Shown one piece after another: positions 1,380 through 9,630 of a stretch of DNA of 16,327 nt. The position numbers were made by a program, and so were the translations under genes. The first letter of the stretch is position 1. Every line of letters starts with the position of its first letter. The notes below the pieces were generated by a model, which made no database searches, was not told where the DNA came from, and worked only from the letters and a program-made list of their open reading frames with translations. Origin of the DNA: a virus (Duplodnaviria > Heunggongvirae > Uroviricota > Caudoviricetes); IMG/VR virus record IMGVR_UViG_2645728010_000001. One strand, given 5' to 3'.

Positions 1380-1432
1380 CGGCGGCAGAGCAGTCACGGA
1401 GTAAAACTGATACCGCCAAACGTCACCAGAAA
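1380..1432 (-). ncRNA. dicF: DicF sRNA (ftsZ-targeting antisense RNA) with 3' hairpin and U-tract
   Basis: Minus-strand sequence UUUCUGGUGACGUUUGGCGGUAUCAGUUUUACUCCGUGACUGCUCUGCCGCC followed by UUUUU matches recalled 53-nt DicF; position between ydfC-like gene and dicB. Ends approximate. Confidence 0.8.
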
Positions 1433-5141: not shown

Positions 5142-5345
5142 TGGCAATTTATTGTCTTGTTATTGTTCTTATGGATCACCTTTCTGATTGATTTCATATT
5201 GGAGAGGTAACGGTAGTTAAGTAGAATGGCTGCGGGTGCTTGAGGCTATCTGCCTCGGGCATGAACACCAACGGCAGATAGAGAAAAGCCCCAGTTAACA
5301 TTACGCGTCCTGCAAGACGCTTAACATTAATCTGAGGCCAATTTC

Positions 5346-5558
5346 ATGCTAGACACATGTAGGTTAGCCTCTTACGTGCCGAAAGGCAAGGAGAAGCAGG
5401 CTATGAAGCAGCAAAAGGCGATGTTAATCGCCCTGATCGTCATCTGTTTAACCGTCATAGTGACGGCACTGGTAACGAGGAAAGACCTCTGCGAGGTACG
5501 AATCCGAACCGGCCAGACGGAGGTCGCTGTCTTCACAGCTTACGAACCTGAGGAGTAA
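5346..5558 (+). CDS. mok: Mok-like in-frame upstream extension of hok (modulator of killing)
   Basis: 70-aa ORF in frame with hok from ATG 5346 (MLDTCRLASYVPKGKEKQA-MKQQ...), the same architecture as recalled MokC/HokC. Confidence 0.45.
   Translation: MLDTCRLASYVPKGKEKQAMKQQKAMLIALIVICLTVIVTALVTRKDLCEVRIRTGQTEVAVFTAYEPEE
5403..5558 (+). CDS. hokD: Hok/Gef-family type I toxin (HokD/RelF-like)
   Basis: 51 aa MKQQKAMLIALIVICLTVIVTALVTRKDLCEVRIRTGQTEVAVFTAYEPEE; AAGGAG RBS 7 nt upstream; single TM helix plus conserved C-terminal Hok segment. Confidence 0.85.
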   Translation: MKQQKAMLIALIVICLTVIVTALVTRKDLCEVRIRTGQTEVAVFTAYEPEE

Positions 5559-5626
5559 GAGACCCGGCGAGGGAGAAATCCCTCGCCACCTCTGATGTGG
5601 CAGGCATCCTCAACGCACTCGCACTT

Positions 5627-5655
5627 AACCCGCTTCGGCGGGTTTTTGTTTTTAT
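5627..5655 (+). terminator. rho-independent terminator downstream of hok
   Basis: aacccgc-ttcg-gcgggtt hairpin followed by tttgtttttatttt; an additional perfect 8-bp hairpin (ggcgaggg...ccctcgcc) at 5567-5587 may be the hok mRNA 3' fold-back element. Confidence 0.6.
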
Positions 5656-5666
5656 TTTCAACGCGT

Positions 5667-5696
5667 TTGAAGTTCTGGACGGTGCCGGAATAGAAT
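5667..5696 (+). promoter_or_regulatory. candidate sigma70 promoter for the rem-like gene (-35 TTGAAG, 18-nt spacer, -10 TAGAAT)
   Basis: Hexamers read directly, about 80 nt upstream of the rem-like ATG. Confidence 0.35.
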
Positions 5697-5774
5697 CAAA
5701 AATACTTAAGTAGCGCGCAGGGATAAGAGGGATGGTCCCTTAAAGGGGAGAGCTAATTATCCGGAAGGATTCTG

Positions 5775-6026
5775 ATGATGAACATCGAAGAACTGCGTAA
5801 AAATTTTTGTGAAGATGGCCTCTATGCTGTGTGCGTTGAAAATGGAAATCTTGTTAGTCATTACCGCATTATGTGTTTGCGAAAGAATGGGGCTGCGTTA
5901 ATTAATTTTGTGGATGGTCGAGTGACAGACGGATTTATCTTGCGCGAAGGTGAGTTTGTCACTTCATTACAGGCACTGAAAGAGATCGGAATAAAAGCAG
6001 GCTTTTCAGCTTTTGCAGAAGAATAA
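5775..6026 (+). CDS. rem: Rem-like small protein (function unknown)
   Basis: 83-aa ORF with GGAAGGA RBS; size and position (hok -> rem -> ydfU -> Q) match Qin order. Confidence 0.5.
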   Translation: MMNIEELRKNFCEDGLYAVCVENGNLVSHYRIMCLRKNGAALINFVDGRVTDGFILREGEFVTSLQALKEIGIKAGFSAFAEE

Positions 6027-6092
6027 ACTCATCTACAATCTTGCGCGGGGCTGAACTCCCGCTGAGTAACACCGTGCCACCGGAGAAAACCG

Positions 6093-6371
6093 ATGGCACG
6101 CAACGTAAAATATTACAATTCTGATAATTCGCCCGTTCTTGTCTGCACGCACGAGCGGTATTCTCACGCATTCAAGTCTGAATGGTTCCAACACCCTCCA
6201 TGCACTGAAGAGCAGGCTGAATGGATAATTCAGTGTTACCGCAGGCGCGGATACGAGGTTAAGAAAGCCCTTAGTCTCGACTACCGTCACTGGATAATCT
6301 CAGTCAGATTGCCTTACTCCGAACGCCCACCGCGTCCGTCCCGTACATTCCAGCAACGCATCTGGAGGTAA
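6093..6371 (+). CDS. hypothetical protein (92 aa), possibly N-terminal part of a split ydfU-like gene
   Basis: ATG with GGAGAAAA RBS; stop TAA lies 1 nt before the GTG of the next ORF (GGAGG between). Confidence 0.45.
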   Translation: MARNVKYYNSDNSPVLVCTHERYSHAFKSEWFQHPPCTEEQAEWIIQCYRRRGYEVKKALSLDYRHWIISVRLPYSERPPRPSRTFQQRIWR

Positions 6372-6372
6372 C

Positions 6373-7023
6373 GTGCGGGTATTACTTCGACCTGTTCTGG
6401 TACCGGAACTTGGGCTGGTGGTCGTTAAGCCGGGCCGTGAATCCATGCCGGTATTCCACAATACCCGGGTATCCTGGTGGGCGGTCCGCAATCAGCTGGC
6501 GGACGCGCTACCGGAAGCGGTATTACGTCGCTCGCTGGGATTACCAGCGGAAAAAATCTGCTCGGTGTACCGCGAAAGCGACATCGTACCGGGAGAGCAG
6601 ACCGCCACCAGCATATTGAAACAGCGCACAAAAAATCTTGCACCGTTGCCTCACGCCCACCAGCAACAAAACCCATCACAGGAAAAGACGGTGGTAAGCA
6701 TCACCGTTGATCCAGAGTCTCCGGAATCTTTCATGAAGCTGCCTAAACGTCACCGGTGGGTTAAGGAGAAATACACACGCTGGGTTAAGACACAGCCGTG
6801 TGCTTGCTGCGGTATGCCAGCCGACGATCCGCATCATCTGATTGGTCACGGGCAGGGCGGAATGGGAACCAAAGCACATGATCTCTTTGTTTTGCCTTTG
6901 TGCAGAAAGCATCACGACGAGTTGCATACGGATACCGTGGCATTTGAAGAGAAGTATGGCTCCCAACTGGAGCTGATTTTTCGATTTATCGATCGCGCGC
7001 TGGCAATTGGTGTGCTGGCCTAA
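6373..7023 (+). CDS. DUF968-type protein with C-terminal Cys/His (HNH-like) motif (ydfU-like)
   Basis: 216 aa; C-terminal CACCG...DPHH...H...CRKHHDELH cluster; immediately upstream of Q as ydfU is in Qin. Confidence 0.55.
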
Positions 7024-7040
7024 TTTTGTGGAGTAAGTTG

Positions 7041-7418
7041 ATGCGTGATATTCAGATGGTTCTTGAGCGTTGGGGGGCATGGGCGGCTAATAATCATGAA
7101 GATGTGACCTGGTCGTCCATTGCCGCCGGTTTTAAGGGATTAATTCCTTCAAAAGTAAGATCTCGTCCGCAATGCTGTGACGATGACGCGATGATCATTT
7201 GTGAATGTATGGCTCGCCTGAAAAAAAACAACAGCGATTTACATGATTTATTGGTGGACTATTATGTCGGCGGCATGACTTTTATGGCGCTTGCACGTAA
7301 GCATGGGCGATCTGATTGTTGGGTTGGCAGGATGCTCCAGAAAGCTGAGGGCGTAGTGGAGGGCATGCTGATGGTGTTGGATCTCCGATTGGAGATGGAT
7401 GCTGATTGTTCGAAATAA
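7041..7418 (+). CDS. late-gene antiterminator Q (short, QuuD/phage-82-like type)
   Basis: 125 aa from ATG 7041 with GGAG RBS ([24 protein letters not shown]...); cysteine-rich centre; followed by promoter-like region and intrinsic terminator as PR'/tR'. Confidence 0.8.
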
Positions 7419-7516
7419 TTAAAGGAAAAGTTGCTGTCTGATTTTCATTAGTCTAACATTTTAAATGTTGGAATCGCAACGTAGTTATTATCATATAACA
7501 GCTTATTTCCTGATTT

Positions 7517-7547
7517 AGCCAGCCTCCCCAAAGGCTGGTTTTTTTCT
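7517..7547 (+). terminator. intrinsic terminator downstream of Q (tR'-like)
   Basis: ccagcct-ccccaa-aggctgg stem-loop followed by an 8-T run; oriented for the plus strand. Confidence 0.65.
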
Positions 7548-7573
7548 AATAAGTATCATTTCGGGTGGGGATT

Positions 7574-8098
7574 TTATTGTTTAACCCATAATAGTTCATT
7601 GACATTGAATCCCAACTTTTGAGCGGTACGCACATAGTCTGCTTTTACATTATCTGGAATAGTTTGGGTCCTTGCCAGAATCCATAGGTATTCTCTGTTC
7701 GGACCACTGACAAGAGCATACTTATACTCATCATCCAGTTTGATTACATTATAGCCACCATAGAAGGGGCCAAAAAACGAAACTTTCAACGCTGCAGTTT
7801 TAGTATCTCCAGTAAAGTATGCTTTACCTTCGCTCTCGCTCCATTTGTTTTTCGTTGGATCGTATCCACGGTTAAGTACGCGAATCCCTCCGTCGTTCCG
7901 TTTTTCATAAGTAGCGCTGACCTGTTCCAGACCACGTTCGAACCAGTTCTCGAGGCGAGCTATTTCATACCATTTTCCGAGGTAGCGGTTGGCGTCAAAA
8001 TTTGTAATCGGCTGCACACCTTTAGGTGGTGTCGGAGCCTTACATGCTATAAGAGTGAAAGAGAGTGCAATGCCAGTCAACACAGGCCATAACTTCAT
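7574..8098 (-). CDS. outer-membrane lipocalin lipoprotein, Blc family (diverged)
   Basis: 174 aa; signal peptide with lipobox LIAC; lipocalin motifs NFDANRYLGKWYEIARLENWFERGLE, FGPFYGGYNVI, YLWILART; AGGA RBS. Confidence 0.85.
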   Translation of the reverse strand: MKLWPVLTGIALSFTLIACKAPTPPKGVQPITNFDANRYLGKWYEIARLENWFERGLEQVSATYEKRNDGGIRVLNRGYDPTKNKWSESEGKAYFTGDTKTAALKVSFFGPFYGGYNVIKLDDEYKYALVSGPNREYLWILARTQTIPDNVKADYVRTAQKLGFNVNELLWVKQ

Positions 8099-8290
8099 AA
8101 TAAATCCTGTACTTTTGATAGTTGAGAGTAAGTATGAAAGATAGATGAGTACGACCGATCACTTAAAGAACTTTCCTACTATATTAGGAATAGTCAATAA
8201 CAGAAAAATTGTCAGTGATGAAGCCAGAAAGGCAATTTAGTCCGTGCACTACAAAGTTTATGTGTTAATGAATTAGTCAAGGGGGAGGAA

Positions 8291-8440
8291 ATGATAAAAA
8301 AACCTGTGATTGGGATCAGCGGTTGTTTGGGCGGTTCTGCTGTTCGTTTTGATGGTGGTCACAAAAGAGATGACTTTTTAATGGACAAATTAGTGGAATG
8401 GGTAACATTCAGACCAGTATGTCCGGAAATGGCTATATGA
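8291..8440 (+). pseudogene. 5' fragment of a DUF523-type gene truncated by IS3
   Basis: Strong RBS GGGGGAGG; MIKKPVIGISGCLGGSAVRFDGGHK resembles DUF523 N-termini; ORF stops in a TGA supplied by the IS3 terminal repeat; 49 aa where about 150 is expected. Confidence 0.45.
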
Positions 8441-8467
8441 TCCTACCCACGTAATATGGACACAGGC

Positions 8468-9334
8468 CTAAGCGAGGTTCTGGTTTTCAAATTGTTCCGG
8501 ACTGAGGCCGCCACACCAACTGTGCCGCCGCCACCGATTGTAATCACATTCGATATAATTAAACACCGTTGCCCGCATTATTTCCCGGCTGATAAAGTGT
8601 TCTCCATGGATACATTCCACTTTCAGCGAATGAAAGAAGCTTTCCACGCAGGCATTATCGTAGCAGCAACCTTTTGCGCTCATACTTCCACGCAGATTAT
8701 GCCGCTTCAGTTGCGCCTGATAATCTGCTGAACAGTACTGGCCTCCACGGTCCGTGTGAACGATAACGTTCCGGGGCCTCTTACGCCGCCACAGCGCCAT
8801 CTGCAGGGCATCGCAGGCCAGTTGCGCCGTCATGCGTGGCGACATTGACCAGCCAATAACGGCACGTGACCACAGGTCAATGACCACTGCCAGATACAGC
8901 CAGCCTTCATCTGTACGTAAGTACGTGATGTCTCCTGCCCACTTCTGGTTCGGGCCACTGGCGTAAAAATCCTGCTCCAACAGATTTTCTGACACAGGCA
9001 GGCCGTGTGCGCGGTAGCTGACCGGGCTGAACTTCCGGGAGGCCTTTGCCCTCAGTCCCTGACGGCGCAGGCTTGCCGCCACGGTTTTTACGTTAAAGGG
9101 GTAACCCTGAGCACGCAGTTCATCCGTCAGGCGTGGGGCACCGTAACGCTGTTTTGACCGGGTAAAAGCCGCGAGGACAACGCTGTCGCAGTGTTGGCGG
9201 AACTGCTGACGCGTGCTTATCCTTGTCCGCCGCTGACACCACGTATACCAGCCGCTGCGGGCCACCCGGAGCACGCGGCACATTGCTTTGATGCTGAACT
9301 CAGCCTGATGTTTTTCAATAAAGACATACTTCAT
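8468..9334 (-). CDS. insF: IS3 transposase OrfB (DDE integrase-like)
   Basis: 288 aa; matches recalled IS3 OrfB; overlaps orfA in ATGA arrangement. Confidence 0.9.
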
Positions 9335-9630
9335 TTCAGGCGCTTCGCGAAGTATGTCGCGGCCTTTTGGAGGATAGCCAGCTCTTCATCCCGTTCTGCC
9401 AGCTGGCGTTTGAGACGTGCAATCTCGGTAGACATCTCCAGTTCACGTTCAGAAGACGTCTGCTGATTTTGCTGTTTACTGCGCCAGTTGTAGAGTTGTG
9501 ATTCATACAGGCTGAGTTCACGGGCTGCGGCAGTAACACCGATGCGTTCAGCAAGCTTCAGGGCTTCACTGCGAAATTCAGGCGAATGCTGTTTACGGGG
9601 TTTTTTACTGGTTGATACTGTTTTTGTCAT
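9331..9630 (-). CDS. insE: IS3 transposase OrfA (HTH)
   Basis: 99 aa from ATG ([31 protein letters not shown]...); the ORF track's longer start is an upstream GTG. Confidence 0.9.

What the first reader, a model, noticed from the sequence alone, without database searches (positions are those of the whole stretch)
6093..7023. ydfU-like region split into two ORFs that overlap in different frames
The 92-aa ORF ends one nucleotide before the GTG of the 216-aa DUF968 ORF, but the second frame is already open about 75 nt upstream (from about 6298). That fits either two translationally coupled genes or a single ancestral gene split by a frameshift. The C-terminal Cys/His cluster suggests a metal-binding nuclease-like fold of unknown role.
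Basis: partly seen in the sequence, partly recalled or inferred. Interest (0 to 1): 0.35.

Follow-up and report, generated by a model that had tools for sequence, protein, structure and literature searches.

The report
Two coupled prophage genes, one internally deleted
These are two ordinary, separate genes of a defective E. coli prophage, not one gene broken by a frameshift; the real lesion is a clean 399-base in-frame deletion that removes the front domain of the second gene, a predicted DNA-cutting enzyme.

Summary
The window is the Qin-type cryptic prophage of E. coli B/BL21 (100% identity). The described ORFs are real: 6093-6371 (92 aa) and 6373-7023 (216 aa, DUF968), joined as GGAGG-TAA-C-GTG. 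The frameshift reading is refuted. Eight copies differing by up to about 25% in ORF1 protein sequence all have a 92-aa ORF, the same junction and a 348-351-aa ydfU starting at that GTG. ORF1 belongs to a stand-alone phage family (phrog_1212) whose C-terminus is native. It evolves under purifying selection in its own frame only. It removes residues 34-166, most of the N-terminal domain. The native start and the complete C-terminal His-Me-finger (HNH) nuclease core, related to YbcO, remain. The allele occurs in natural isolates and on at least 1000 public contigs, so it is not a sequencing error. PGAP calls it a pseudogene in BL21. Everything is already annotated, so interest is low. One curiosity: a second, independent deletion, in 70 genomes, uses exactly the same TA, at the end of the palindrome TACCCGGGTA.

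The parts
6082..6085 (+). Shine-Dalgarno-like GGAG, 7 nt before the ATG of ORF1
   Evidence: Read from the sequence.
6093..6371 (+). ORF1, a 92-aa stand-alone gene of unknown function (phrog_1212). Residues 1-26 are variable and predicted disordered. Residues 27-92 form a conserved beta-alpha-beta-beta-alpha core.
   Evidence: E 5e-36, profile 1-66 of 66 = residues 27-92; dN/dS 0.13-0.31 in its own frame.
6364..6372 (+). Coupling junction: GGAGG (6364-6368), ORF1 stop TAA (6369-6371) and spacer C (6372), directly before the GTG of ydfU
   Evidence: The junction is identical in 8 diverged copies.
6373..7023 (+). ydfU deletion allele, lacking residues 34-166. It encodes 216 aa from the native GTG start to the native stop.
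   Evidence: PGAP marks it as a pseudogene in BL21(DE3). The exact protein is on at least 1000 public contigs.
6462..6471 (.). Perfect 10-bp palindrome TACCCGGGTA. Its last two bases (TA, 6470-6471) are the 2-bp microhomology at the 399-bp deletion junction.
   Evidence: The same TA is the left breakpoint of a ydfU::tail-fibre fusion in other strains.
6474..6480 (+). CTGGTGG, the surviving copy of a 7-nt direct repeat (7 of 8 bases of Chi) that lies just 3' of both deletion end-points in the intact allele, offset by 2 nt
6469..7011 (+). Region matching Pfam DUF968 (profile positions 7-171 of 171)
6799..6927 (+). His-Me finger (HNH) core, C143..H185 of the 216-aa product (C276..H318 of the full-length protein), fully intact
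   Evidence: Conserved columns. Beta-beta-alpha element in the model. hhalign to a YbcO-family protein. Weak HNHc_6 hit.

Best explanation
The region holds two separate genes from the nin-like region (between the replication genes and Q) of a Qin-type defective lambdoid prophage, in the order rem - ORF1 - ydfU - Q. ORF1 (92 aa, phrog_1212) ends with TAA inside the ribosome-binding region of ydfU (GGAGG-TAA-C-GTG). Ribosomes finishing ORF1 can therefore most likely restart on ydfU; this coupling is inferred from the sequence, not shown. Intact YdfU (349 aa) has an N-terminal domain of about 190 residues, a flexible linker and a C-terminal His-Me-finger (HNH) nuclease domain related to YbcO. In this lineage a single illegitimate-recombination event removed exactly 399 bp (codons 34-166). 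It occurred at a 2-bp TA microhomology at the end of the palindrome TACCCGGGTA, next to a 7-nt CTGGTGG repeat. The reading frame, the start codon and the whole nuclease core are kept, but about 70% of the N-terminal domain is gone. The product is most likely a decaying remnant. Less likely it is a YbcO-like mini-nuclease that has lost whatever targeting or regulation the N-domain provides.
For: Identity: the region is 100% identical to E. coli B/BL21/C genomes. The gene order is hokD-rem-ORF1-ydfU-Q.

Conserved boundary: strain W409 (99.7% identical) and K-12 both have a 92-aa ORF and a 349-aa ydfU with the same stop/1-nt/GTG junction. The same holds in O157:H7 and in phages PhiR42_1, Evi, Tritos and 689R5.

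Deletion: the common prefix is 99 nt and the common suffix 554 nt, with a 2-nt overlap and a 399-nt difference.

ORF1 is a real, separate gene. It matches phrog_1212 end to end. Free-standing homologues of about 66 aa occur in mEp237, Gifsy-1, PY54, phiES15, N15, SPN3UB and others, with the C-terminal PRPSRT-QQ-W motif conserved up to the stop. dN/dS is 0.13-0.31 in its own frame and 0.9-2.6 in the other two frames. In the last 72 nt, 12 of 17 variable sites fall on ORF1 codon position 3, which is position 2 of the ydfU frame.

Full-length YdfU matches phrog_96 'HNH endonuclease' over residues 1-349. The window's protein matches only the second half of that profile.

The structure model (pLDDT 85) shows two domains and a beta-beta-alpha element in the C-domain. 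hhalign aligns YdfU 274-348 with YbcO 17-94 at E 1.8e-5. The literature places DUF968 together with YbcO (PDB 3g27) in His-Me finger group 7 (PMC5714182).

The allele is not an artefact. It is present in many independent complete genomes, including human isolates, in 2 of 119 matching metagenome contigs, and the exact protein is on at least 1000 contigs.
Against: Translational coupling is inferred from geometry only. No stable RNA structure masks the ydfU start (z = 0.18). No expression data were examined, and in K-12 a strong Rho-dependent terminator lies upstream of ydfU (PMC9160355), so the genes may be largely silent. Nuclease activity has never been shown for any DUF968 protein that I could find. 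Foldseek against the PDB gave no significant match (best E 1.9), and the profile hit to 3g27 was weak (E 1.4). Whether the 216-aa product folds or acts is unknown. The mechanism of the deletion is inferred from the junction sequence.
Confidence: 0.9

Rival explanations
1. A single ancestral ydfU-like gene was split by a +1/-1 frameshift into a 92-aa and a 216-aa ORF.
For: The two ORFs abut in different frames, and the second frame is open 25 codons upstream of its GTG.
Against: All 8 diverged copies have the identical two-ORF layout, and ydfU is full length (348-351 aa) from the same GTG. ORF1 matches a stand-alone family over its entire profile, and its C-terminus is conserved up to the stop in unrelated phages. 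YdfU residue 1 aligns with position 1 of phrog_96. Among the proteins listed by two searches with ORF1, the only one combining ORF1 with ydfU sequence is a 96-aa deletion chimera. Substitution patterns show that only the ORF1 frame is coding upstream of the GTG.
Confidence: 0.01
2. The short ydfU is a sequencing or assembly artefact of this one genome.
For: None beyond the fact that PGAP flags it as incomplete.
Against: The same 1001 bp are 100% identical in dozens of independently sequenced genomes (REL606, BL21 lines, E. coli C, human isolates H1827/12, MIN14, E100341). The junction occurs in gut metagenome contigs. The exact protein is on at least 1000 contigs.
Confidence: 0.01
3. The 216-aa form is ancestral and the 349-aa form arose by insertion of 399 bp.
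For: Short nucleases with only the nuclease core exist naturally next to ORF1 homologues (YbcO, 96 aa, in mEp237 and phiES15).
Against: The N-domain, including the deleted part, is conserved in homologues down to 26-30% identity, with invariant C93 and C118. The short allele is nested within a lineage 99.7% identical to an intact copy. The retained residues 1-33 and 167-190 are fragments of the N-domain fold in the model.
Confidence: 0.02
4. The deletion allele is not junk. It encodes a working mini-nuclease (leader plus linker plus HNH core) that is still made by coupling to ORF1 and is maintained by selection.
For: The deletion is in frame. It keeps the native start, the Shine-Dalgarno sequence and every conserved catalytic and zinc-binding residue. 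The C-domain is separated from the N-domain by a low-confidence linker, so it probably folds on its own. Natural 96-aa YbcO proteins consist of this core alone. The allele is widespread.
Against: An in-frame outcome has a 1-in-3 chance. The allele shows almost no internal variation, so selection cannot be measured. It sits in a decayed prophage with an IS3 insertion and lost late genes. PGAP treats it as a pseudogene.
Confidence: 0.3

Closest known systems
YdfU of the Qin prophage, E. coli K-12 (b1560, 349 aa, Pfam DUF968 / phrog_96)
   Same: It is the orthologous gene in the same position (rem - ORF1 - ydfU - Q), with the same GTG start and the same stop. It is about 93% identical in DNA over the shared parts.
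   Different: The window's copy lacks codons 34-166 (399 bp), which is most of the N-terminal domain. The Q gene downstream is of a different type: 125-130 aa Phage_antitermQ here, against a 250-aa antiterminator in K-12.
YbcO of prophage DLP12 / phage 82 (Pfam PF07102, PDB 3g27), His-Me finger group 7
   Same: The C-terminal 75 residues of YdfU align with almost the whole of a YbcO-family protein (hhalign E 1.8e-5). Both lie in the nin region before rusA/Q. In mEp237 and phiES15 the YbcO gene directly follows an ORF1 homologue.
   Different: YbcO is 96 aa with no N-terminal domain or linker. Sequence similarity is remote: the profile search against the PDB gave only E 1.4.
Phage P1 Ref, RecA-dependent HNH nuclease (Pfam PF16786), and the HNHc_6 family (PF16784)
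   Same: There are weak matches over the HNH core, residues 135-195 of the 216-aa product.
   Different: Both scores are below the curated cut-offs (17.6 against 26.9; 25.3 against 26.6), so it is not a member. No evidence for RecA dependence.
phrog_1212 small nin-region proteins (mEp237 gp51, Gifsy-1 STM2620.1n, PY54 ORF47, phiES15 gp17)
   Same: ORF1 residues 27-92 match the whole 66-position profile. Members are free-standing genes packed tightly against the next gene. That next gene is a nuclease in 8 of the 11 contexts checked.
   Different: The Escherichia Qin-type members carry an extra, variable and predicted disordered 26-residue N-terminal extension. The function of the family is unknown.

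Membership tests
Pfam DUF968 (PF06147) | Score above the curated gathering threshold (27.8 bits) | tested here: met
   250.4 bits, E 1.3e-74, profile positions 7-171 of 171.
Full-length YdfU architecture (phrog_96; N-domain + linker + HNH domain, 320-370 aa) | Colinear match over the whole profile, including the N-terminal domain with conserved C93/Q94 and C118-W-H-x-D122 | tested here: not met
   The best stretch of the window protein covers only profile positions 167-334, whereas W409 YdfU covers 1-334. Residues 34-166 are absent.
His-Me finger (HNH) nuclease superfamily | A beta-beta-alpha-metal core with a conserved His general base and Cys/His zinc ligands | tested here: met
   C276, H287, H288, D303, H314 and H318 are invariant or nearly so. 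The model has strands 285-288 and 306-309 followed by helix 311-319. hhalign to YbcO gives E 1.8e-5. DUF968 is classified in group 7 by PMC5714182. All these residues are present in the window's protein.
His-Me finger (HNH) nuclease superfamily | Metal-dependent nuclease activity | not testable with these tools
   No biochemical report on a DUF968 protein was found in the papers searched.
P1 Ref / RecA_dep_nuc (PF16786) | Score above the gathering threshold (26.9 bits) | tested here: not met
   17.6 bits, E 0.0043.
phrog_1212 (ORF1) | Significant full-length match to the family profile, as a stand-alone ORF | tested here: met
   E 5.4e-36, profile 1-66 of 66. Free-standing homologues occur in at least 10 phage lineages.
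Frameshift-split pseudogene | Similarity to one longer protein continues from the upstream ORF into the downstream ORF across a change of frame | tested here: not met
   Each ORF matches its own family from end to end. The boundary is identical in 8 diverged intact copies. The ydfU frame upstream of the GTG shows no coding constraint.
Translationally coupled gene pair | Upstream stop within a few nt of the downstream start, with the Shine-Dalgarno sequence inside the upstream ORF | tested here: met
   GGAGG-TAA-C-GTG, invariant in 8 copies.
Translationally coupled gene pair | Downstream translation depends on upstream translation | not testable with these tools
   This needs reporter fusions. 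The predicted RNA fold around the junction is no more stable than shuffled sequences (z 0.18).

The most novel reading that the evidence does not exclude
ORF1 (phrog_1212) could be a dedicated partner, such as an inhibitor, adaptor or specificity subunit, of the nucleases of the phage nin region. It sits immediately upstream of YdfU, YbcO, NinG or an RNase_T exonuclease in 8 of 11 phage contexts. The naturally truncated YdfU of E. coli B would then be a still-active mini-nuclease working with it. In addition, the TA at the end of the TACCCGGGTA palindrome in ydfU could be a true recombination hot spot, perhaps a quasi-site for the prophage's own PinQ invertase, that has repeatedly pruned this prophage.
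Probability: 0.12. Interest if true: 0.4.

Novelty: already known. Interest (0 to 1): 0.12.

Why it matters
It matters little. Both genes and the short allele are already in RefSeq, as 'hypothetical protein' and as 'DUF968 domain-containing protein' or pseudogene. The practical value is a corrected annotation for the most widely used protein-expression strain. BL21/REL606 ydfU is an in-frame internal deletion allele that keeps its native start, not an N-terminally truncated fragment and not a frameshifted gene. The 92-aa ORF upstream is a real, conserved gene. If anyone studies DUF968 nucleases, E. coli B offers a natural N-domain-deletion mutant for comparison with K-12.

Tried and rejected
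- **NCBIfam:** nothing useful for ORF1 or YdfU.
- **PDB sequence searches:** a single sequence gave only spurious zinc-finger hits. The profile gave only 3g27 at E 1.4.
- **Foldseek of the YdfU model against the PDB:** no match below E 1. HNH-containing proteins (Cascade-HNH, IscB, Cap5) were among the top hits but were not significant.
- **Foldseek of the ORF1 model:** nothing significant. R3H domains scored about E 0.8, which I do not rely on.
- **Promoter and terminator scan of 5200-7600:** counts were within two standard deviations of the shuffle expectation and told nothing about this gene pair.
- **RNA fold around the junction:** not different from shuffled sequences.
- **PinQ quasi-site idea for the recurrent TA breakpoint:** the ydfU site resembles gix/hix half-sites only loosely (recalled consensus, not tested). 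The junction is not at the centre of the best-looking pseudo-site. No inverted partner site was found in the tail-fibre locus. This is left as unexplained.
- **Metagenome scan for further junction types at the same TA:** it found 116 intact copies, 2 copies with the 399-bp deletion, one copy cut by a contig end and one unrelated chance match of the 21-mer, but no third junction.
- **'Toxin to Rem' label on ORF1 in two phage records:** no supporting literature was found. Rem is published as an antirepressor of DicA.
- **Count of genomes with the deletion junction:** the tool joins the two flanks of intact copies into one 'place', so I can only bound the count at roughly 46-85 of 5426 complete genomes from the ranking.

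Full report
**Observation**

The two ORFs exist exactly as described: 6093..6371 (ATG, 92 aa) and 6373..7023 (GTG, 216 aa). The junction reads GGAGG(6364-6368)-TAA(6369-6371)-C-GTG(6373). The frame of the second ORF has a TAA at 6295-6297 and is open from 6298, with no possible start codon before the GTG. An open run of 25 codons is expected by chance about 30% of the time (my arithmetic). The 216-aa product is a strong DUF968 match (250 bits). It also has weak, sub-threshold matches to HNHc_6 and to the P1 Ref family.

**Where the window comes from**

The region is 100% identical to E. coli B (REL606), the BL21 derivatives, E. coli C and several human isolates. In BL21(DE3) the annotated gene order is:

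- dicB and the dicA-like and dicC-like regulators;
- ydaT-like and DUF977 genes;
- hokD, rem, a 'hypothetical protein' (ORF1) and a 'DUF968 domain-containing protein, incomplete, missing N-terminus' (pseudogene);
- antiterminator Q, a lipocalin gene, a truncated ybgA-like gene, IS3, tail-fibre remnants and pinQ.

It is therefore a Qin-type defective lambdoid prophage.

**The frameshift hypothesis fails**

In strain W409 (99.7% identical) and in K-12 W3110 (about 93%), the same 92-aa ORF is followed, after stop plus one base, by a 349-aa ydfU starting at the same GTG. I then read six more diverged copies: O157:H7 and phages PhiR42_1, Evi, Tritos and 689R5. With the window these make eight copies. 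In all eight ORF1 is 92 aa, the junction is ...CTGGAGG TAA C GTG, and ydfU is 348-351 aa except in the window, where it is 216 aa.

ORF1 matches a stand-alone phage family, phrog_1212, over the whole 66-position profile (residues 27-92, E 5e-36). Full-length YdfU matches phrog_96 'HNH endonuclease' from position 1 to position 334. Free-standing ORF1 homologues of about 66 aa occur in mEp237, Gifsy-1, PY54, phiES15, N15, SPN3UB, Klebsiella, Edwardsiella and Erwinia phages. Their C-terminal motif PRPSRT(F/Y)QQ(R/K)(I/M/V)W is conserved right up to the stop.

Two database searches with ORF1 returned almost only proteins of 90-92 aa or about 66 aa. The only listed protein that combines ORF1 with ydfU sequence is a 96-aa chimera of ORF1 residues 1-53 and the last 43 residues of YdfU, from a deletion in another genome.

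Pairwise Nei-Gojobori estimates give dN/dS of 0.13-0.31 in the ORF1 frame and 0.9-2.6 in the other two frames. In the last 72 nt of ORF1, which is the stretch where the ydfU frame is also open, 12 of 17 variable sites fall on ORF1 third codon positions. These are second positions of the ydfU frame, so that frame is not coding there.

**What is really unusual: a 399-bp in-frame deletion**

Aligned with W409, the window's ydfU shares a 99-nt prefix and a 554-nt suffix, with a 2-nt overlap, and it lacks exactly 399 nt. The junction is the TA at window 6470-6471.

- Intact left side: ...ACCCGGGTA|CTGGTGGAGCC...
- Intact right side: ...GCTGAATTA|TCCTGGTGGGCGG...

The event therefore used a 2-bp microhomology. 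The TA ends a perfect 10-bp palindrome, TACCCGGGTA. A 7-nt repeat, CTGGTGG (7 of 8 bases of Chi), follows both end-points, offset by two bases. Recombination between the 7-nt repeats themselves would have removed 401 nt and broken the frame, and that is not what happened.

At the protein level, residues 34-166 are lost (349 - 133 = 216). The native start, Shine-Dalgarno sequence and stop are kept. PGAP's description ('missing N-terminus') is thus imprecise, because this is an internal deletion.

The allele is real. It occurs in many independent complete genomes. By position in the hit rankings I estimate roughly 46-85 of 5426; the tool cannot give an exact number because it joins the flanks of intact copies. 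It also occurs in 2 of 119 metagenome contigs that carry the left flank. The exact 216-aa protein is recorded on at least 1000 contigs under the RefSeq-style name 'DUF968 domain-containing protein'.

**What the proteins are**

A search of 1.84 billion cluster representatives found 96 relatives at E <= 1e-30 and 331 at E <= 1e-10. Many are full length, 320-370 aa, and 26-58% identical. In an alignment of 33 of them the invariant or nearly invariant residues fall in two groups:

- C93, Q94, C118, W119 and D122 in the N-terminal part;
- C276, H287, H288, D303, P308, H314 and H318 in the C-terminal part.

AlphaFold2 on this alignment gives a confident model (mean pLDDT 85) with three parts:

- an N-domain of about residues 1-190, containing a beta-hairpin (105-118) and a helix (119-125) that carry the C118-W-H-x-D motif;
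- a low-confidence linker of about residues 190-250;
- a C-domain (250-349) with a beta-beta-alpha element: strands 285-288 and 306-309, helix 311-319.

Profile-profile comparison aligns YdfU 274-348 with residues 17-94 of the 96-aa YbcO-family protein of mEp237 (probability 78%, E 1.8e-5; Pfam YbcO). The only PDB sequence hit of the profile is YbcO 3g27 (E 1.4). Jablonska et al. 2017 place DUF968 and DUF1364/YbcO together as group 7 of the His-Me finger superfamily and name YdfU explicitly (PMC5714182). Curtis et al. 2014 describe DUF968 proteins as a DNA-binding N-terminal part fused to a zinc-finger HNH motif (PMC4118853).

Structure searches against the PDB gave no significant match for either model. 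The nuclease assignment therefore rests on sequence motifs, profile homology and the literature, not on a fold match or on biochemistry.

The deletion removes about 70% of the N-domain, including the hairpin-helix element. It leaves residues 1-33 and 167-190 as orphan fragments, followed by the linker and the entire nuclease core.

The ORF1 model has a disordered tail (residues 1-26) and a compact beta-alpha-beta-beta-alpha core (pLDDT about 88) with no significant structural neighbour.

**How it most likely works**

- **Shown:** two genes, an invariant stop-start junction with the Shine-Dalgarno sequence inside ORF1, and an intact HNH core.
- **Inferred:** ydfU is translated by ribosomes that terminate on ORF1, which is ordinary termination-reinitiation coupling. 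YdfU is a metal-dependent nuclease of the phage nin (recombination and DNA metabolism) module. The N-domain supplies substrate binding or regulation.

The truncated product is most likely a remnant in a decaying prophage. A still-active, YbcO-like mini-nuclease cannot be excluded, and I give it about 0.3. In K-12 a strong Rho-dependent terminator is reported upstream of ydfU (PMC9160355), so expression may be low in any case.

**Comparison with the known, and novelty**

This is YdfU of Qin with an internal deletion, next to a conserved small nin-region gene. Both are in RefSeq. Nothing here is a new kind of system, and I rate it as already known with low interest.

**Side observations**

- In 70 complete genomes (for example CUVET18-1530) the first 99 nt of ydfU are fused in frame to nt 2029 of a Qin-type tail-fibre gene. 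The fusion again uses a 2-bp TA microhomology at the very same TA. Two independent deletions therefore share one end-point at the end of the palindrome. I could not show a mechanism. A hairpin-promoted event and a PinQ quasi-site are both possible, and a search for an inverted partner site found none.
- The gene immediately after an ORF1 homologue is a nuclease in 8 of 11 phage contexts: DUF968 twice, YbcO twice, NinG three times and an RNase_T exonuclease once. This is suggestive, but the nin region is rich in such genes anyway.

Noticed in passing
window 6462-6471; L019 2934-2950; L020 2492-2510: The TA at the end of the palindrome TACCCGGGTA in ydfU is the left end-point of two independent deletions. 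One is the 399-bp intragenic deletion seen here. The other is a large deletion that fuses ydfU codons 1-33 in frame to a Qin-type tail-fibre gene. It has the same 2-bp TA microhomology and is present in 70 of 5426 complete genomes. This may be a recombination hot spot; the mechanism is unknown.
   Followed up: partly
window 6093-6371; L004 2504-2997, L005 2504-3318, L007 2501-2991, L013 1501-2636, L014 1504-2348, L015 966-2200, L017 1492-2296: Homologues of the small ORF1 protein (phrog_1212) sit directly upstream of a nuclease gene (YdfU/DUF968, YbcO, NinG/Rap or an RNase_T exonuclease) in 8 of 11 phage contexts, usually 0-3 nt away or overlapping. This could reflect a functional pairing, or only the position in the nin region.
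   Followed up: partly
full-length YdfU residues 93-125 (L002 3620-3718); deleted in the window: The N-terminal domain of intact YdfU has its own conserved C93-Q / C118-W-H-x-D122 motif on a predicted beta-hairpin plus helix. This resembles a second, possibly degenerate, zinc or His-Me-like element. It has no Pfam model (Pfam DUF968 starts at residue 160).
   Followed up: partly
protein P0382 (another genome); proteins P0144, P0188, P0189, P0186, P0254, P0124: Other chimeras involving this locus exist in public data. One is a 96-aa fusion of ORF1 residues 1-53 to the last 43 residues of YdfU. Others fuse the YdfU N-domain to tail-fibre, tip-attachment J or portal fragments. ydfU is thus a frequent end-point of prophage-pruning deletions.
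   Followed up: partly
window 5775-6026: The gene just upstream of ORF1 is rem. It has been shown experimentally to encode an antirepressor that relieves DicA repression of the dicBF operon (J Bacteriol 2023, PMC10448788). Two phage records instead label Rem 'antitoxin' and ORF1 'toxin to Rem'; I found no support for that label.
   Followed up: partly
window 5234-5558 and 1380-1431: Rfam finds a complete sok antitoxin RNA (5234-5408, + strand, 115 bits) overlapping the start of the hokD/mok reading frame (5346-5558). It also finds DicF sRNA (1380-1431, minus strand, 72 bits). Unlike K-12, this prophage has no relBE between the regulatory region and hokD.
   Followed up: no
window 7026-7418: Similarity to K-12 stops at the end of ydfU. 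The antiterminator here is a short Phage_antitermQ protein (125-130 aa; PGAP starts it at ATG 7041, while ORF listing gives TTG 7026), whereas K-12 Qin has a 250-aa antiterminator. This is a mosaic joint right after ydfU.
   Followed up: no
window 7574-9630: A lipocalin (Blc-like) gene lies on the minus strand (7574-8098). A ybgA-like (2-thiouracil desulfurase family) gene is cut after about 49 codons (8291-8437) by an IS3 element (about 8468-9630). Beyond it, the lysis and head genes of the prophage are missing and only tail-fibre remnants and pinQ remain.
   Followed up: no
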